Below, in pieces: positions 38,193-42,273 of a stretch of DNA of 64,000 nucleotides. The notes beneath the pieces were generated by a model. That model was not told where the DNA came from. It did no database searches and worked only from the letters and a program-made list of their open reading frames with translations. Numbering within the stretch: the stretch's first letter is position 1; each line of letters starts with the position of its first letter. The stretch is from an uncultured Alphaproteobacteria bacterium. Its GTDB lineage: Bacteria > Pseudomonadota > Alphaproteobacteria > Methylaequorales > Methylaequoraceae. A program made the position numbers and the translations under genes. Where the stretch lies: contig CABYVV010000006.1 of assembly GCA_902522465.1 (NCBI GenBank), positions 2,387-66,386 of the forward strand. Reading direction: 5' to 3'.

Positions 38193-38705
38193 ATGGAAAT
38201 TAAAGACATAGAAGAGTGTATTAGTAAAGTTCCAGACTATCCAAAGCCTGGCATACTTTTCTATGATATATCCTCTCTTTTATTAAATAATAGAGCATTT
38301 CAAAGCTCAATTGAACTATTAAAAAACCTAATTAAAAATTATAAATTTGATCTAATTGCAGGAATTGATGCAAGAGGGTTTATATTTGCTTCAAGTATGG
38401 CATATAGTTTTAATAAGGGTTTGGTTATGATTAGAAAAAAAAATAAACTACCTGGAAATAAAATAAGCTTCGAATATGAACTTGAATATGGAAAAGATAC
38501 ACTGGAGGTAAATGTAAATTTAAAAAATAAAAAAATTGTAATTATTGACGATTTACTAGCCACAGGTGGTACTTTAAATGCTGCAATCCAACTCATTGAA
38601 AAATCTGGAGGAAAGGTAAGCTGTTTCGCTTCTTTGATCGAATTAGATTTTCTTGATGGAAGAAAAAAAATTAAAATACCAATTGAAACCTTGATACATT
38701 ACTAA
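38193..38705 (+). CDS. apt: Adenine phosphoribosyltransferase
   Basis: PDYPKPGILFYDI, GIDARGF, RKKNKLP, YELEYG, IDDLLATGGT. Confidence 0.98.
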   Translation: MEIKDIEECISKVPDYPKPGILFYDISSLLLNNRAFQSSIELLKNLIKNYKFDLIAGIDARGFIFASSMAYSFNKGLVMIRKKNKLPGNKISFEYELEYGKDTLEVNVNLKNKKIVIIDDLLATGGTLNAAIQLIEKSGGKVSCFASLIELDFLDGRKKIKIPIETLIHY

Positions 38706-38724
38706 TCAAAACTAAATTTAAAAT

Positions 38725-39435
38725 ATGACCCGTGTTCACAAACTTTTTCTCAAATGGCTTCTTCAATTTAGTTTAATGAGTTTTTTTCTTTTTTTTATTT
38801 TTGATCAAGGATTAATACTCAAGATAGTCAGTTCCGACAGAAGCTACATAACAAGTTTAATAATCATGTCTTTCTTTGCTGTAAGCATTCATTGTTTCTA
38901 CCATACCTTTAAAATATCTGATGAATTAAATAAAGCACATGTGATAAAAAAAAGTCTTCTTGACGAAAATGTAAAATTAAGAATCATCGATGATGCTCTT
39001 ATACTTACGTCTAAGGGTGAGATTTCAGATGGAATTGTAAGGGATTATTTTAAGGATTTAATAGGATTAAAAAAAAATGGAGCCACATCTCATGTTCAAA
39101 TATTAGACAGCTATATAAAAAAGACTGTTGGTTTCTATGAATTTGGATGGTTCTGTTCTGATATAATGTTGAAGCTTGGTTTGATAGGAACAGTCATAGG
39201 ATTTATAATAATGTTGAGTTCATTATCTGATATAACTACTTTCGATGTTACATTGCTTCAAGGAGTCCTAACTACCATGGGAAGTGGGATGGGTGTTGCA
39301 CTTTACACAACACTGTCAGCCCTTGTAGCAGGAGTCATGGTCGCAATTCAATATTTTAATCTTGAGAGTGGATGTGAAGAACTCTTTTCAGTTTTAAATC
39401 AAATATCTGAAGTTAGCATAGATAATAGTTTATAA
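38725..39435 (+). CDS. MotA/TolQ/ExbB proton-channel family protein
   Basis: LGLIGTVIGF and GMGVALYTT helices; two further N-terminal TM segments. Confidence 0.85.
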   Translation: MTRVHKLFLKWLLQFSLMSFFLFFIFDQGLILKIVSSDRSYITSLIIMSFFAVSIHCFYHTFKISDELNKAHVIKKSLLDENVKLRIIDDALILTSKGEISDGIVRDYFKDLIGLKKNGATSHVQILDSYIKKTVGFYEFGWFCSDIMLKLGLIGTVIGFIIMLSSLSDITTFDVTLLQGVLTTMGSGMGVALYTTLSALVAGVMVAIQYFNLESGCEELFSVLNQISEVSIDNSL

Positions 39436-40031
39436 TGTCGTACTCTGGAAGAAGATTAAGGGCTGATCCTTTTACTGATTTATTATTTAATATTTTACTA
39501 TCTTTTACACTATTAATGTTTTTAGCTATTATTTTTATGAATCCTATTCCTAAAACTGGTGTAATTAATCCTAAAGCTGAGTATATAATTACAGTTAGCT
39601 GGAAAGACAATAATCCTGATGATGTGGACACATATGTTCAAAGTCCAACTGGTGATTTGGTTTGGTTCAGAGCGAAGGAAGCAGGATTCGTTCATCTTGA
39701 CAGAGATGACAGAGGTCTTCTTAATGATACTATTGAAATTAATGGTGAGAAAGTTCAAAATCCACTCAATCAGGAAGTTGTAACAATTAGAGCTGTTGTT
39801 CCTGGAGAATATATTGTTAATATACATTACTATGCGACTAAAACTGAACAACCAGTTGATGTAAACGTAAAAGTTGAAAAAGTTAATCCAAGGTTAGAGG
39901 TTATTTATTACGGGACAATAAAATTAGAAAAAAAAGGTGTAGAAAAAACTGCAACAAGATTTAATATTACTCAAGACGGAATAGTAAGTATTTCAGGAAA
40001 TTTATTTAAAAAATTAGTTCCTGAAAACTAG
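39435..40031 (+). CDS. MotB/ExbD-like single-pass partner with a YfaP/DUF2135-like periplasmic domain
   Basis: DPFTDLLFNILL TM helix with Asp; W...DDVD.YV..P.G, LDRDD, E.VTI...PGEY.VN.HYY; start overlaps the upstream stop. Confidence 0.6.
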   Translation: MSYSGRRLRADPFTDLLFNILLSFTLLMFLAIIFMNPIPKTGVINPKAEYIITVSWKDNNPDDVDTYVQSPTGDLVWFRAKEAGFVHLDRDDRGLLNDTIEINGEKVQNPLNQEVVTIRAVVPGEYIVNIHYYATKTEQPVDVNVKVEKVNPRLEVIYYGTIKLEKKGVEKTATRFNITQDGIVSISGNLFKKLVPEN

Positions 40032-40043
40032 AGAAAGGAAACA

Positions 40044-40565
40044 ATGAATTCAGAAATTTTTTTTATAATTATATGCTATGTTATTTTGGCATTTCTTTTA
40101 GTTTTATTTAATTTAAGAACAAACTTTCATTGGCTGATTAAATCATCAATGATAGTCTTAACAACTTTCTTCTACATCTTAACATATGATTCCTTCAAGA
40201 ATCTCATGGGATGGCCCTCAAATGATAATCTGCCAGACAGATTCAGATTAGTTTCGGCTCAAATTTATGAACCAAATGCACTAATTAACTCTGAGGGATC
40301 GATTTTTCTTTGGATAACCGACATGGATGATTTGGCAGGATTAAGCACACCACGATCTTATAGCTTAAAATACAATAAGGAAGTTCATGAAAGAGTTTCT
40401 AAAGCTCTTGTTAGCCTTAAAAACGGAATACCACAAATGGGTGAAAATATTGACGAGAATAAAAAAAATATTATTTCTTCAATTTTAAAAAAAGAAAAAG
40501 CATCTACGGTGAGTTCAAAACTAAATTTTTTTGATATGCCAAATCAACTTTTACCAGAAAAGTGA
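40044..40565 (+). CDS. Uncharacterised membrane protein (2 TM plus soluble domain)
   Basis: Two hydrophobic helices followed by GWPS, IYEP, IFLW, PRSY motifs; AGGA RBS. Confidence 0.7.
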   Translation: MNSEIFFIIICYVILAFLLVLFNLRTNFHWLIKSSMIVLTTFFYILTYDSFKNLMGWPSNDNLPDRFRLVSAQIYEPNALINSEGSIFLWITDMDDLAGLSTPRSYSLKYNKEVHERVSKALVSLKNGIPQMGENIDENKKNIISSILKKEKASTVSSKLNFFDMPNQLLPEK

Positions 40566-41254
40566 TGAAATATCTTTTTATTATTTTTCTTTTAATTGGA
40601 TGTTCAGAAAATAATAACTCCTACTTTCCTCTAGAATCAAGCAGATCGTGGTCTTACAAAGTTGAAATTCAGCCAGAAATAGAACAAAAAACCATTTATA
40701 AAAAGGTCAACCTATCTCTTGGTAAAAAAAAAATAAAAATAAACGGTGAAGAGAACTCACTTTATCCTTTTATGAGAGAAGATGGATCAATTTTCTTCTA
40801 TGCTTCAAATAGAAATGGTGTTCACAGAAAAGGATATAAATTCCTAAAGGACAAGAAAGTCATGGCTGATAAAGAAGAAAGGATTGTACTACCAAGGCCA
40901 CTCAAAATTGGAAAAAAATGGGAAGTTCAAAGCAAAACTTATTTAATACTAAAAAGATACCCTTATTACGATTACCGAGCCACTACTAATTTTGAAATAA
41001 AATACAAAATCAAATCTGAGAATGAAATTGTTAACACTCCTGCTGGGAAATTTAAAAATTGTCTTTTAGTTGAAGGTTTTGGAAAAACAAAATTTATAGG
41101 AGATAGTGAAATTGGAACTATAGAAATAACAATAACATCAAAAGAATGGTATGCGAAAGGTGTTGGATTGATCAAATCTTTGAGAGTTGAAAAAACAGAC
41201 TCTGATCTATTTGGAACAACAAAAATGACTCAAATTCTTGAGGATTATAAGTAA
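40562..41254 (+). CDS. Uncharacterised lipoprotein
   Basis: LLIGC lipobox; YFPL...W.Y, V.TPAGKF.NC, WYAKGVGLIK; GTGA overlap with upstream gene. Confidence 0.75.
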   Translation: MMKYLFIIFLLIGCSENNNSYFPLESSRSWSYKVEIQPEIEQKTIYKKVNLSLGKKKIKINGEENSLYPFMREDGSIFFYASNRNGVHRKGYKFLKDKKVMADKEERIVLPRPLKIGKKWEVQSKTYLILKRYPYYDYRATTNFEIKYKIKSENEIVNTPAGKFKNCLLVEGFGKTKFIGDSEIGTIEITITSKEWYAKGVGLIKSLRVEKTDSDLFGTTKMTQILEDYK

Positions 41255-41265
41255 AACATTTATTT

Positions 41266-42273
41266 ATGGTTATTAATAAAACAATTTTTATTTTTTTTTT
41301 CTCCTTATTAGTGCTCTACCTTGGTAAATTTATATTATTACCTCTCTCGATTTCACTATTCATTTATCTAGTAATAAAGTCTCTATCTAATAAATTTTTA
41401 ATTTATATTAATAATTTTTTTAAAATTAAATTAAGCGAATTTTTGGCTTTATTAATTGTATTTCTAATATTATTCAGTTTCCTATATTTTTTCTGGATAA
41501 TACTTGAATTTAATATTACTCGAGTAAAACAAAAATCACTTGTATATCAAAATAATTTAAATGACATACTCGATTTATTCTCAAATACAATAATCAAAAG
41601 AATAATACCTTTAAATGATGTTTTTAATGATTTAGATTTTATGAATATTTTTTCAAAAACGTTAAATAGCTTATCAAATTTAGCAGGAAGTTTCTCTTTC
41701 ATAATAATACTTTTAATTTTTTTTATTATTGAAGAAAAGTATTTTGTTAGAAAATTAAAACTCATTGTTAACAAAAAAAATATGCAAATAATAAAAAAGA
41801 TAAATTATGATATTTTCTATTATTTTCAAATAAAATTCTTTACAAGCTTTTTGACAGGTTTTTCCACGTTCATTGTTTTATATTTCCTACAAAATGACCT
41901 AGCACCAACATTTGGTTTACTCTCATTTATTCTTAATTTCATACCTCTAATTGGATCACTAGTTTCAATTTTACTACCTTTTGTTTTTTCTGGAATCCAA
42001 TTCCTAAGTTTTTATGAACCGACTTTAACATTAATTACACTTACAATTATTCAAATTTTTATTGGTAACTTTTTAGAACCTAAGATGATGGGAAATACAC
42101 TGAATATTAGCCCATTAGTCATGATTTTATTCTTATCATTAATGGGAAAACTTTGGGGAATTGCCGGTATGTTTTTAAGTGTTCCTTTTTTGGTTGTTAT
42201 TTTGATAATACTTAGAAGAATCAATTCTACAAAAAAAATTGCTATTTTCTTATCAGAAAAAGGCAATAATTAA
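41266..42273 (+). CDS. AI-2E family transporter
   Basis: LNFIP.IG, Q..IGNFLEPK.MG..LNISP, WGIAGMFLSVP. Confidence 0.9.
   Translation: MVINKTIFIFFFSLLVLYLGKFILLPLSISLFIYLVIKSLSNKFLIYINNFFKIKLSEFLALLIVFLILFSFLYFFWIILEFNITRVKQKSLVYQNNLNDILDLFSNTIIKRIIPLNDVFNDLDFMNIFSKTLNSLSNLAGSFSFIIILLIFFIIEEKYFVRKLKLIVNKKNMQIIKKINYDIFYYFQIKFFTSFLTGFSTFIVLYFLQNDLAPTFGLLSFILNFIPLIGSLVSILLPFVFSGIQFLSFYEPTLTLITLTIIQIFIGNFLEPKMMGNTLNISPLVMILFLSLMGKLWGIAGMFLSVPFLVVILIILRRINSTKKIAIFLSEKGNN

What the first reader, a model, noticed from the sequence alone, without database searches (positions are those of the whole stretch)
38725..41254. Orphan MotA/TolQ-type ion motor operon with a non-standard B subunit
Seen: four coupled or closely spaced genes after apt. 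They encode a MotA/TolQ/ExbB-like channel, a single-pass protein whose TM helix (DPFTDLLF) carries an Asp, a 2-TM protein, and a lipoprotein. Known: MotB D32, ExbD D25 and TolR D23 are the ion-binding Asp of 5:2 motors. Here the periplasmic part looks like a YfaP/DUF2135 beta-domain, not an OmpA-like or ExbD fold, and no tonB, tolAB-pal, flagellar or zorC/D/E genes are adjacent. Inference: an uncharacterised energised envelope machine in which ORF3 may transmit force and the lipoprotein may be the outer-membrane partner.
Basis: partly seen in the sequence, partly recalled or inferred. Interest (0 to 1): 0.78.

Follow-up and report, generated by a model that had tools for sequence, protein, structure and literature searches.

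The report
New ion-motor family shared with phages
These four genes encode an undescribed relative of the ion-driven membrane motors behind flagella and the Tol and Ton systems, with an unusual second subunit and a fixed third partner, and phages carry the same gene set, sometimes fused to a cell-wall-cutting enzyme.

Summary
Window 38725-41254 (+) carries four translationally coupled genes.
- A is a MotA/ExbB-family channel (PF01618, 31.5 bits, cut-off 22.9).
- B is a single-pass protein with an Asp in its membrane helix.
- ORF3 is a 2-TM protein.
- ORF4 is a DUF3108-like lipoprotein.

What is new:
- B's periplasmic domain is a TerD-like beta-sandwich (Z 10.1 and 9.7; next hit 6.2). It is not an ExbD, OmpA or true DUF2135 domain. 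It has an invariant acidic cluster.
- A-B-ORF3 is a fixed triad. It is kept in 75 of 79 genome loci and 29 of 31 viral contigs. Every miss is cut by a contig end.
- ORF4 is an accessory part.
- Phages carry a minimal version whose A (about 150-170 aa) has no cytoplasmic domain. Cultured Rhizobium phages P10VF and 16-3 are among them.
- In four viral loci ORF3 is fused to a GH24 lysozyme.

Best reading, at about 0.5: a new branch of 5:2-type ion-driven motors that works on the periplasmic side. ORF3 would be the arm that reaches the cell wall.

Still open: the stoichiometry, ion use and biological role were not tested. About one in eight B representatives lacks the Asp. I found no description in print.

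The parts
38725..39435 (+). A subunit: 4-TM MotA/TolQ/ExbB-family channel protein, 236 aa, with a cytoplasmic insert of about 70 residues between TM2 and TM3
   Evidence: PF01618 scores 31.5 bits against a cut-off of 22.9. Invariant in 41 bacterial and viral homologues: D38, G152, G155, T156, G159, F160, M189, A192, L193, T195, T196. The profile's best solved relatives are MotA (E 0.0032), TolQ (0.037) and ExbB (0.49).
39435..40031 (+). B subunit: N-terminal membrane helix (12-34) with D15, a short linker, then a TerD-like beta-sandwich (50-188) with an invariant acidic cluster
   Evidence: AlphaFold2 pLDDT 92.5. VIA Z 10.1 and 9.7 to TerD structures, next hit 6.2. Foldseek E 2.9e-4. D15 is kept in 110 of 126 rows. 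W56, D63, D65, D91, G94 and E114 are invariant in 97 rows. No Pfam or NCBIfam family reaches its cut-off.
40044..40565 (+). ORF3: 2-TM hairpin, a small periplasmic beta/alpha domain and a conserved C-terminal tail (FFDMPNQLLPEK)
   Evidence: AlphaFold2 pLDDT 77.9. Invariant: G56, P64, P103, R104, G133. It always follows B. Homologues are fused to PF00959 lysozyme in 4 viral loci. No Pfam, NCBIfam, PADLOC or PHROG family matches.
40562..41254 (+). ORF4: predicted lipoprotein, DUF3108-like; an accessory component
   Evidence: Lipobox LIGC at residues 11-14 (sequence). PF21347 scores 29.8 bits against a cut-off of 27. Homologues follow the triad in 37 of 79 genome loci, 5 of 15 phylum-sample loci and 0 of 31 viral loci.
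38193..38705 (+). apt (adenine phosphoribosyltransferase), 19 nt upstream on the same strand; possibly co-transcribed, not part of the machine
   Evidence: PF00156, E 6e-20. It flanks the system only in the close clade, loci L001-L036. A 1479-nt contig from an RNA library spans apt, A and the start of B.
41266..42273 (+). AI-2E family transporter, 11 nt downstream on the same strand; the link is uncertain
   Evidence: PF01594, E 2e-34. It is also adjacent, on the other strand, in the distant locus L050.

Best explanation
The operon encodes an undescribed branch of the MotA/ExbB-type ion-driven membrane motors, the class that works as five A subunits around two B subunits.

Inferred by homology: A forms the ring and B's N-terminal helices form the axle. 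B's D15 would face the conserved Thr residues of A's last two helices. Ion flow there would drive rotation or a conformational cycle.

Shown:
- Phage versions of A have no cytoplasmic domain at all.
- B carries a highly conserved TerD-like beta-sandwich, rich in invariant acidic residues, a few residues outside the membrane.
- A 2-TM protein, ORF3, always follows B.
- ORF3's C-terminus is fused to a lysozyme in some phages.

Inferred from these facts:
- The work is done on the periplasmic side.
- B's domain probably binds a divalent cation such as Ca2+.
- ORF3 is the output arm, playing the part that TolA or TonB plays in the Tol and Ton systems, and it reaches the peptidoglycan layer.
- In some lineages the ORF4 lipoprotein is a partner on the outer-membrane side.

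My odds on the separate steps:
- A and B form a motor-type pair: 0.8.
- ORF3 belongs to the complex: 0.75.
- The target is the cell wall or envelope: 0.5.
For: 1. A is a true family member. PF01618 is above its cut-off. The LGxxGTxxGF and ALYTTL motifs are invariant in 41 homologues from bacteria and phages. Section 8 of PMC12204202 (read) describes the Thr ring and the proton-binding Asp as the essential pair in MotAB, ExbBD and TolQR.
2. B's D15 is kept in 110 of 126 rows. It aligns with the Asp of this genome's own TolR: PFTD against PFVD.
3. The order A-B-ORF3 is kept in 75 of 79 genome loci and 29 of 31 viral loci. All six misses are cut by a contig end.
4. The viral A proteins (152-173 aa) lack the whole TM2-TM3 insert but keep the core.
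5. B is far more conserved than A or ORF3: 48-67% against 27-44% and 26-43% identity in distant loci. W56, D63, D65, D91, G94 and E114 are invariant.
6. B's fold matches TerD at Z 10.1 and 9.7, well above the next hit at 6.2. One of the two entries is titled for its calcium binding.
7. The ORF3-like N-part (hhalign probability 96.5%, E 9.8e-10, 142 columns) is fused to PF00959 Phage_lysozyme (E 1e-45 to 6e-50) in L117, L123, L124 and L126.
8. Cell-wall genes turn up beside it. A YkuD L,D-transpeptidase lies just upstream in L039, L048 and L050. RodA and PBP2 lie nearby in the window.
9. The gene is core in the window's own family. It is found in 34 of 36 other genomes.
Against: - No stoichiometry, complex or ion flux was tested.
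- The match between B's helix and TolR is 13 residues long and not significant (E 0.033, probability 1.5%).
- A's links to solved motors are weak (E 0.0032 to 0.49).
- D15 is missing in 16 of 126 rows (7 Val, 6 gaps, 3 others). Whole clades are affected: L047-L050 have Ala, and L091-L095 have Val15, Lys19 and Gln22, while their A subunits stay intact.
- ORF3's model is only moderate (pLDDT 77.9; residues 148-157 below 50). Its fold found no clear match.
- The lysozyme fusion occurs in a minority of phage lineages and in no bacterial locus seen.
- Cation binding by B is inferred from fold and acidic residues only. Pfam's TerD model does not match.
- The neighbouring cell-wall genes may be chance.
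Confidence: 0.5

Rival explanations
1. It is at root a phage module for lysis control, later taken over by bacteria. A and B would sense or dissipate the membrane potential. This would hold back or release a membrane-tethered wall-cutting enzyme or its adaptor (ORF3). The chromosomal copies would be domesticated descendants with a related wall-remodelling or autolysis role.
For: - 31 viral contigs and 25 Rhizobium phage records carry B, with A and ORF3 beside it.
- Real phage genes surround them.
- In the B tree, viral rows form several deep clades, while 47 of 49 bacterial rows sit in one starred clade.
- ORF3 is fused to a lysozyme in four loci. An endolysin lies two genes away in L103.
Against: - In most viral loci the triad sits among DNA-metabolism genes such as RNR, RusA and an exonuclease. 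It is not in a recognisable lysis cassette.
- The tree is unrooted, so no direction of transfer is shown.
- The window's copy is syntenic and core in a family of streamlined genomes, found in 34 of 36. It is not in a prophage.
- No holin or spanin was identified beside it.
Confidence: 0.2
2. It is a gated ion channel or sensor and does no mechanical work. A and B would conduct protons or another cation under the control of Ca2+ or another ligand bound to B's TerD-like cap. ORF3 would be a regulator.
For: - B's domain sits only about 12 residues after the helix, which suits a cap.
- B has a cluster of invariant acidic residues and a TerD-like fold, and TerD binds calcium.
- The phage A proteins have no cytoplasmic domain.
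- Clades without D15 persist, which suits a function not strictly tied to an Asp-based cycle.
Against: - It does not explain the strict presence of ORF3, its lysozyme fusions or the added lipoprotein.
- All characterised members of PF01618 act as energy transducers. This point is from established knowledge, not from a call.
Confidence: 0.12
3. It is an anti-phage defence or superinfection-exclusion system of the Zorya kind. A MotAB-like unit would sense envelope damage by an incoming phage.
For: - There are weak ZorA matches (PADLOC E 0.0054; NCBIfam ZorA_2 11.5 bits).
- It occurs in a temperate phage (16-3) and in prophage-like loci L096 and L097.
- Its distribution is patchy and looks like horizontal transfer.
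Against: - The ZorA scores are far below the cut-off (11.5 against 100).
- No ZorC, ZorD or ZorE, and no nuclease or other effector, lies nearby.
- It sits in a stable core position in the window's family.
- It is also present in lytic-type marine phage contigs.
Confidence: 0.08
4. It is an ordinary, diverged ExbB-ExbD-TonB or TolQ-TolR-TolA set.
For: - The gene order (channel, single-pass Asp protein, membrane-anchored periplasmic protein, lipoprotein) mirrors tolQ-tolR-tolA-pal.
- 2 of 97 B homologues give weak ExbD matches (best E 0.0051).
Against: - B has no ExbD domain, and ORF3 matches no TonB or TolA family at E up to 1.
- A has four membrane helices and scores only 31.5 bits.
- The same genome has canonical tolQ-tolR (122.7 and 117.1 bits) and exbB-exbD-exbD elsewhere.
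Confidence: 0.03

Closest known systems
TolQ-TolR-TolA(-Pal) and ExbB-ExbD-TonB
   Same: - A PF01618 channel subunit with conserved Thr residues in the last two helices.
- A single-pass partner with a membrane Asp in a P-F-x-D context.
- A third inner-membrane protein that projects into the periplasm.
- In some lineages, a lipoprotein gene at the end of the operon.
   Different: - B has a TerD-like beta-sandwich in place of the ExbD/TolR domain.
- ORF3 has two membrane helices and a small globular domain. It has no Pro-rich or long helical spacer and no TonB/TolA C-terminal domain.
- A has four helices, and in phages it has no cytoplasmic domain.
TolQ-like motors with vWA 'transpore-helix' partners (Williams-Jones et al. 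2025, PMC12204202; section 8 read)
   Same: This is a published precedent for a PF01618 protein paired with a non-ExbD partner. That partner carries the Asp helix and an unrelated periplasmic domain, and it was proposed to act as the dimeric axle.
   Different: - The partner domain there is vWA; here it is TerD-like.
- That paper describes no fixed third 2-TM protein, no phage copies and no lysozyme fusion. I read only its outline and section 8, and I did not see its supplements.
MotA-MotB / PomA-PomB flagellar stators
   Same: A has the same 4-TM topology. The closest solved sequence relative of the A profile is a MotA (8gqy, E 0.0032).
   Different: - B has no plug and no OmpA domain.
- A has no torque-generating cytoplasmic domain.
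- The genome's real MotA-MotB pair lies elsewhere.
TerD (tellurite-resistance, calcium-binding beta-sandwich)
   Same: It is the best structural match for B residues 49-196: Z 10.1 with 130 residues aligned at rmsd 3.8, and Z 9.7 with 131 residues at rmsd 3.6.
   Different: - Sequence identity is only 9-14%, and there is no Pfam TerD match.
- TerD proteins are soluble and cytoplasmic (recalled, not from a call). B's domain is membrane-anchored and periplasmic.
Zorya ZorA-ZorB
   Same: A MotAB-like pair that lies outside flagellar, Tol and Ton contexts and has links to phage biology.
   Different: - ZorA is much longer, with a long cytoplasmic tail (recalled).
- Scores here are far below the cut-offs.
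- No ZorC, ZorD or ZorE is present.

Membership tests
MotA/TolQ/ExbB proton channel family (PF01618), for A | Profile score above Pfam's gathering cut-off | tested here: met
   31.5 bits against 22.9. Viral homologues score 33.2, 33.5 and 27.4. P10VF_191 scores 20.1, below the cut-off.
MotA/TolQ/ExbB proton channel family (PF01618), for A | Conserved Gly-Thr in the penultimate helix and Thr in the last helix (the pore-lining ring) | tested here: met
   G155, T156, T195 and T196 are invariant in 41 sequences. Their role is taken from PMC12204202 section 8 and from recall.
5:2 ion-driven motors (MotAB, ExbBD, TolQR, GldLM, ZorAB) | Membrane-embedded acidic residue in the partner's single helix | tested here: met
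   D15 is kept in 110 of 126 rows. It is absent in 16, including two whole clades.
5:2 ion-driven motors (MotAB, ExbBD, TolQR, GldLM, ZorAB) | Five A subunits around two B subunits | not testable with these tools
A5B2 needs 7 chains and 1576 residues.
ExbD/TolR (PF02472), for B | ExbD-type periplasmic domain or profile match | tested here: not met
   The window's B has no match at E up to 1. 2 of 97 homologues match weakly (best E 0.0051). The genome's own TolR scores 117.1 bits.
MotB (PF13677 plug + PF00691 OmpA), for B | Plug helix and peptidoglycan-binding OmpA domain | tested here: not met
   Neither family matches B at E up to 1. The genome's MotB has both.
TerD (PF02342), for B's periplasmic domain | Profile match or shared fold | tested here: inconclusive
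   There is no Pfam match at E up to 1. The fold matches at Z 10.1 and 9.7, clearly above the next hit at 6.2, and at Foldseek E 2.9e-4. Fold likeness alone does not show membership.
YfaP / DUF2135 (PF09906), for B | Profile score above the cut-off | tested here: not met
   13.8 bits against 22, over 39 residues. 5 of 97 homologues match weakly. Some sources nevertheless name homologues 'YfaP (DUF2135 family)'.
TonB / TolA force transducers, for ORF3 | Single N-terminal anchor helix, extended spacer and a TonB/TolA C-terminal domain | tested here: not met
   No TonB or TolA family matches at E up to 1. The model shows two helices and a compact domain. The functional analogy stays open.
Zorya (ZorA/ZorB with ZorC/D/E) | ZorA profile above the cut-off and effector genes adjacent | tested here: not met
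   NF033915 scores 11.5 bits against 100. PADLOC ZorA gives E 0.0054 at 13.5 bits. B, ORF3 and ORF4 have no PADLOC match.
DUF3108-like (PF21347), for ORF4 | Profile score above the cut-off | tested here: met
   29.8 bits against 27, over residues 152-213 only.

The most novel reading that the evidence does not exclude
Phages and bacteria share a minimal rotary or gated ion motor made of a 4-helix A subunit of about 150 aa and a TerD-capped B subunit. Its job would be to couple the state of the membrane potential to cell-wall hydrolysis or remodelling through ORF3. In phages it would be a new kind of lysis controller that holds or fires a membrane-tethered lysozyme. In bacteria it would be a fourth envelope energiser beside the flagellar, Ton and Tol motors.
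Probability: 0.2. Interest if true: 0.9.

Novelty: new variant of a known kind. Interest (0 to 1): 0.74.

Why it matters
Only a handful of 5:2-type motors are understood: flagellar, Ton, Tol, gliding/T9SS and Zorya. Here is a further branch with three useful properties.
- It has a new kind of B subunit, and its third partner is always present. That gives a defined three-protein target for structural work.
- Its phage forms are the smallest A subunits seen here. They have no cytoplasmic domain, so they may show what the bare motor core can do.
- It occurs in cultured, tractable phages, Rhizobium phages 16-3 and P10VF, where deletions are easy to make.

The lysozyme fusions point to a testable link between membrane energy and cell-wall cutting. 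The gene set is also core in a family of abundant, small-genome marine alphaproteobacteria, so it probably matters for their envelope biology.

Tried and rejected
- **B with ORF3 complex.** Complex prediction on full-length B and ORF3, each with its own alignment, gave 'no answer' (score 0.00, mark 0.32). This is no evidence either way. An A5B2 model was not attempted because it exceeds the limits on chains and residues.
- **ORF3 fold searches.** The VIA wide list was filled by the helical hairpin (residues 1-55, best Z 8.0). Foldseek gave no match at E 0.001 or better. The best Foldseek rows were weak likenesses to small beta-barrel (OB-like) proteins, with probability up to 0.63. I keep 'OB-like' only as a loose description.
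- **B family against this genome's TolR by hhalign.** Only 13 residues aligned and the match is not significant.
- **PDB by sequence.** B's profile gave nothing below E 0.057. ORF4 gave nothing below E 0.89.
- **Family libraries.** PADLOC and NCBIfam have no family for B, ORF3 or ORF4. PHROGs has none for A, ORF3 or ORF4, and B has one weak match (E 0.00045).
- **Protein Atlas.** The nearest clusters of B and ORF3 are unnamed or 'hypothetical'.
- **Promoter and terminator scan.** It found no more sites than shuffled sequence gives.
- **RNA libraries.** Contigs of one marine metatranscriptome cover 26 of 30 bins of 38193-41300. No cover was seen over 40793-41208, which proves nothing. DNA carry-over was not excluded, so I do not count this as shown expression.
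- **The phylum of the 'Rhodothermales' MAG (L058).** Only that MAG has a full-length B among 301 genomes. The other 9 hits are partial matches inside ORFs of 449-1319 aa. I therefore do not claim a range beyond Pseudomonadota and phages.
- **Proteases upstream of A.** A ClpP-like protease lies upstream in 7 viral loci, and a trypsin-like protease lies upstream in 16-3 and L097. I judged them probably unrelated, because the ClpP-like one has no export signal visible.
- **Literature.** Seven searches found no description of this gene set: DUF2135 (0 papers); the five motor names; TerD with MotA, TolQ or ExbB; phage-encoded, endolysin and motor terms; pelagiphage with ExbB (0 papers); rhizobiophage with motor terms; MotA-like, phage and auxiliary metabolic. 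Subscription journals and supplements were not covered.
Full report
**1. The observation**

- A: 38725-39435, 236 aa.
- B: 39435-40031, 198 aa.
- ORF3: 40044-40565, 173 aa.
- ORF4: 40562-41254, 230 aa.

All are on the + strand of a stretch with about 22-34% G+C. The junctions show translational coupling. A and B overlap by 1 nt. A 12-nt spacer with AAGGA precedes ORF3. ORF3 and ORF4 overlap by 4 nt. apt ends 19 nt before A, and an AI-2E transporter gene starts 11 nt after ORF4.

The surrounding genes are housekeeping genes: a polyprenyl synthetase, an ABC1 kinase, a TetR-like gene, apt, the AI-2E transporter, RodA and PBP2. No ton, tol, flagellar or zor gene is adjacent.

The genome (1.33 Mb in 35 contigs, 87% complete) has four other MotA_ExbB units elsewhere:
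- tolQ-tolR with a tolA-like gene;
- exbB-exbD-exbD;
- motA-motB with plug and OmpA domains, with FliG present in the genome;
- a 313-aa weak match next to an OmpA-family protein.

**2. The four proteins**

*A.*
- A passes Pfam MotA_ExbB (31.5 bits against 22.9).
- By hydrophobicity, read from the sequence, it has four membrane helices in two pairs, as MotA does. An insert of about 70 residues lies between the pairs.
- In an alignment of 41 bacterial and viral homologues, D38, G152, G155, T156, G159, F160, M189, A192, L193, T195 and T196 are invariant.
- These cover the LGxxGTxxGF and ALYTTL motifs of the two pore helices.
- The family profile finds MotA (8gqy, E 0.0032), TolQ (0.037), PomA (0.1) and ExbB (0.49) among solved chains. 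A is therefore an outlying member, not clearly nearer to one known branch.

*B.*
- The AlphaFold2 model is confident (pLDDT 92.5). It has a helix at 12-34, a linker of about 15 residues and an all-beta domain at 50-188.
- D15 sits in the helix within PFTDLLFN.
- Of the 150 representatives listed, I kept the 125 that are 180-290 aa long. With the window's B that makes 126 rows. D15 is kept in 110 of them (7 Val, 6 gaps, and one each of Ile, Ala and Leu). N19 is kept in 90.
- The only stretch that a profile comparison aligns with this genome's TolR is ADPFTDLLFNILL against VTPFVDVMLVLLI. It puts Asp on Asp but is not significant (E 0.033, probability 1.5%).
- The beta domain is not an ExbD, OmpA or DUF2135 member.
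- Its fold is nearest to TerD. VIA gives Z 10.1 (130 residues, rmsd 3.8) and Z 9.7 (131 residues, rmsd 3.6). The second match is the calcium-binding TerD of Klebsiella. The next hit scores Z 6.2.
- Foldseek agrees (E 2.9e-4). TerD-named viral models also appear in BFVD.
- W56, D63, D65, D91, G94 and E114 are invariant in 97 sequences. D92 and D98 are nearly so.
- From the fold and this acidic cluster I infer a divalent-cation site. This was not tested.

*ORF3.*
- The model is moderate (pLDDT 77.9).
- It shows helices at 2-25 and 30-51, then three strands, a helix, a fourth strand, a poorly modelled stretch and a last strand.
- Charges around the helices (read from the sequence) put the C-terminal domain in the periplasm.
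- G56, P64, P103, R104 and G133 are invariant. The tail F-x-D-x-P-x-x-L-x-P-x-K is nearly so.
- No library family matches, and no fold match is clear.

*ORF4.* It has a lipobox (LIGC) and passes DUF3108_like (29.8 against 27).

**3. Conservation and range**

B has many relatives.
- 2084 clusters at 90% identity match at E 0.001 or better.
- 1683 representatives at 50% identity match (1023 at E 1e-10 or better).
- Every source name read is either 'hypothetical protein' or, for a few JGI entries, 'YfaP (DUF2135 family)'.

The gene order was counted with profile HMMs built from my alignments.

| Set of loci | A-B-ORF3 in order | Misses |
|---|---|---|
| genome-contig loci | 75 of 79 | 4, all ending within 106 nt after B |
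| viral loci | 29 of 31 | 2, both cut by a contig end |
| phylum-sample loci with a full-length B | 12 of 14 | L096 and L097 |

L096 and L097 are prophage-like and very diverged. Read by eye, they have look-alike neighbours.

In distant loci B is much better conserved than its partners: 48-67% identity, against 27-44% for A and 26-43% for ORF3.

ORF4-like lipoproteins follow the triad in 37 of 79 genome loci, in 5 of 15 phylum-sample loci (gammaproteobacterial) and in 0 of 31 viral loci. ORF4 is therefore an accessory part.

The taxonomic spread is uneven.
- In the window's own family, B is in 34 of 36 other genomes. The two without it are 77% and 66% complete.
- In other families of the same class it is in 2 of 24 genomes.
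- In an even sample of Pseudomonadota it is in 15 of 401 genomes. Two of those are domain-only matches.
- In the phylum of one 'Rhodothermales' MAG that carries it, no other of 301 genomes has a full-length copy.

The B tree mixes Alpha- and Gammaproteobacteria, which suggests horizontal transfer. The tree has 71 rows, kept from 124 after I dropped rows under 150 aa and near-duplicates.

**4. Variants that count against a simple reading**

Two clades lack D15.
- L047-L050 read DPITAVLFKIIQ and have two ORF3 paralogues.
- L091-L095 come from alphaproteobacterial genomes of 6.1-8.8 Mb. They read DPLGVMLFKALQ, that is Val15, Lys19 and Gln22.

The A subunits of both clades keep the Gly-Thr and Thr-Thr motifs. 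Both clades keep an Asp four residues earlier (D11), which is not conserved in the wider family. I cannot tell whether these variants use another residue, another ion or no ion at all.

**5. Phages**

- 31 IMG/VR contigs encode B homologues at 34-43% identity, most with FTDLLFN.
- Each B is preceded by a short A of 152-173 aa. Three of these pass PF01618 at 33.2, 33.5 and 27.4 bits.
- The short A proteins lack the whole insert between helices 2 and 3.
- Each B is followed by an ORF3-like 2-TM protein.
- The contigs carry real phage genes: a head-tail adaptor, endolysins, ribonucleotide reductase, RusA, an exonuclease, tRNA nucleotidyltransferase and NifU.

Among 50,697 GenBank phage records, 25 match, and all are Rhizobium phages.
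- In P10VF, genes 191, 192 and 193 are A-like (PF01618 20.1 bits, below the cut-off), B and ORF3-like.
- In the temperate phage 16-3, the corresponding genes are p038, p040 and p042.
- All are annotated as hypothetical or given only a number.

In the unrooted B tree, 47 of 49 bacterial rows form one starred clade together with P10VF's long branch. Viral rows form several deeper clades. 16-3 p040 groups with L096 and L097. The family has clearly been in phages for a long time, but no direction of transfer is shown.

**6. The fusion**

In L117, L123, L124 and L126 the gene after B encodes 295-305 residues.
- The first 150 or so residues match the ORF3 profile (hhalign probability 96.5%, E 9.8e-10, 142 columns, tested on L124). 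The match includes the 2-TM hairpin and the W-Y-D-M-P-P-x-E-V-x-P-K tail.
- The rest is a GH24 Phage_lysozyme domain (E 1.2e-45 to 5.8e-50).

A lysozyme must reach the peptidoglycan. This fixes ORF3's C-terminus in the periplasm and ties the triad to the cell wall in those phages.

Weaker hints point the same way. A YkuD L,D-transpeptidase with a DUF302 protein lies just upstream of A in L039, L048 and L050. RodA and PBP2 lie near the window's operon. These may be chance.

**7. How it most likely works**

*Shown:* family membership of A; the conserved Asp and Thr pattern; the strict triad; the TerD-like cap; the loss of A's cytoplasmic part in phages; the lysozyme fusion.

*Inferred by homology with the solved MotAB, ExbBD and TolQR complexes* (section 8 of PMC12204202, and recall): five A subunits surround two B helices, and ion passage at the Asp-Thr site drives rotation or a power stroke.

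*Inferred from the anatomy:* the output is periplasmic. B's cap sits on the ring. ORF3 is the arm that carries the work to the wall, as TolA and TonB do for their motors. ORF4 is an added outer-membrane-side partner in some lineages.

I put 0.5 on this whole picture. The main rival (0.2) sees a phage lysis-control device at the root, in which A and B read or dissipate the membrane potential to hold or free a tethered wall hydrolase. Smaller rivals are a ligand-gated channel (0.12), a Zorya-like defence or exclusion system (0.08) and an ordinary Ton or Tol set (0.03). The domain tests largely exclude the last of these.

**8. What is known**

The nearest published idea is the TolQ-like motor paired with vWA proteins that carry a 'transpore helix' with the Asp (PMC12204202; outline and section 8 read; supplements not seen). 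The survey of MotAB relatives (PMC12505986; abstract and sections 8 and 14 read) describes varied non-flagellar units but, in those sections, nothing like this B or ORF3.

Seven literature searches found no description of the gene set. The library lacks most subscription journals, so a description may still exist in print.

**9. Expression**

Contigs from one marine metatranscriptome library match the stretch.
- A 1479-nt contig runs from apt through A into B, with 6 differences.
- A 587-nt contig runs from the B-ORF3 spacer through ORF3 into ORF4, with 0 differences.

DNA carry-over was not excluded, so this is only consistent with transcription.

**10. Verdict**

The B domain is re-assigned to a TerD-like fold. 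The lipoprotein is demoted to an accessory part. The system turns out to be a family shared by Proteobacteria and their phages, with a fusion that points at the cell wall. It is a new variant of a known kind of machine. The mechanism is inferred, not shown.

Noticed in passing
G000 contigs C8, C5, C15 (loci L080, L081, L082, L084): This small genome (1.33 Mb assembled) holds five MotA_ExbB-family units. One is an unexplained pair: a 313-aa protein with a weak MotA_ExbB match (23.8 bits) next to a 232-aa OmpA-family protein (L084).
   Followed up: partly
L091-L095 (B at about 1440-2110 of each locus) and L047-L050: Two clades of B lack the membrane Asp. One has Val15, Lys19 and Gln22, the other has Ala15. 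Their A subunits keep the Thr motifs. The L047-L050 clade also has two tandem ORF3 paralogues.
   Followed up: partly
L039:2076-3201, L048:4056-5131, L050:3988-5165: A YkuD L,D-transpeptidase and a DUF302 protein lie directly upstream of A, on the same strand, in three distant loci.
   Followed up: no
L056:4636-5181, L072:4719-5225, L052:4750-5271: A Sel1-repeat protein lies directly upstream of A in Granulosicoccaceae and in a Hyphomicrobiales MAG. L042:8982-9473 also encodes a Sel1 protein, but downstream on the other strand. PMC12204202 reports a TPR gene beside its vWA motors.
   Followed up: no
L112:3672-4385: In this viral contig the gene right before A encodes a PycTM domain (Pycsar effector transmembrane domain, 76 bits). 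A solute-binding-protein-like gene precedes it.
   Followed up: no
L085 and L100 (same genome, G274 contig C4, about 40 kb apart): One gammaproteobacterial genome carries two copies of the system. An ORF4-like lipoprotein was detected only beside the L100 copy, within the short loci fetched.
   Followed up: no
window 41266-42273 and L050:7700-8719: An AI-2E family transporter gene lies next to the system both in the window's clade (same strand, 11-nt gap) and in a distant clade (opposite strand).
   Followed up: no
L109, L117, L121, L123, L124, L126, L128 (gene just upstream of A, except L123, where an AdoMet decarboxylase gene lies between); L132:1801-2697; L097:2896-3537: A ClpP-like protease precedes A in seven viral loci. 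A trypsin-like protease lies upstream in phage 16-3 and in the prophage-like locus L097.
   Followed up: partly
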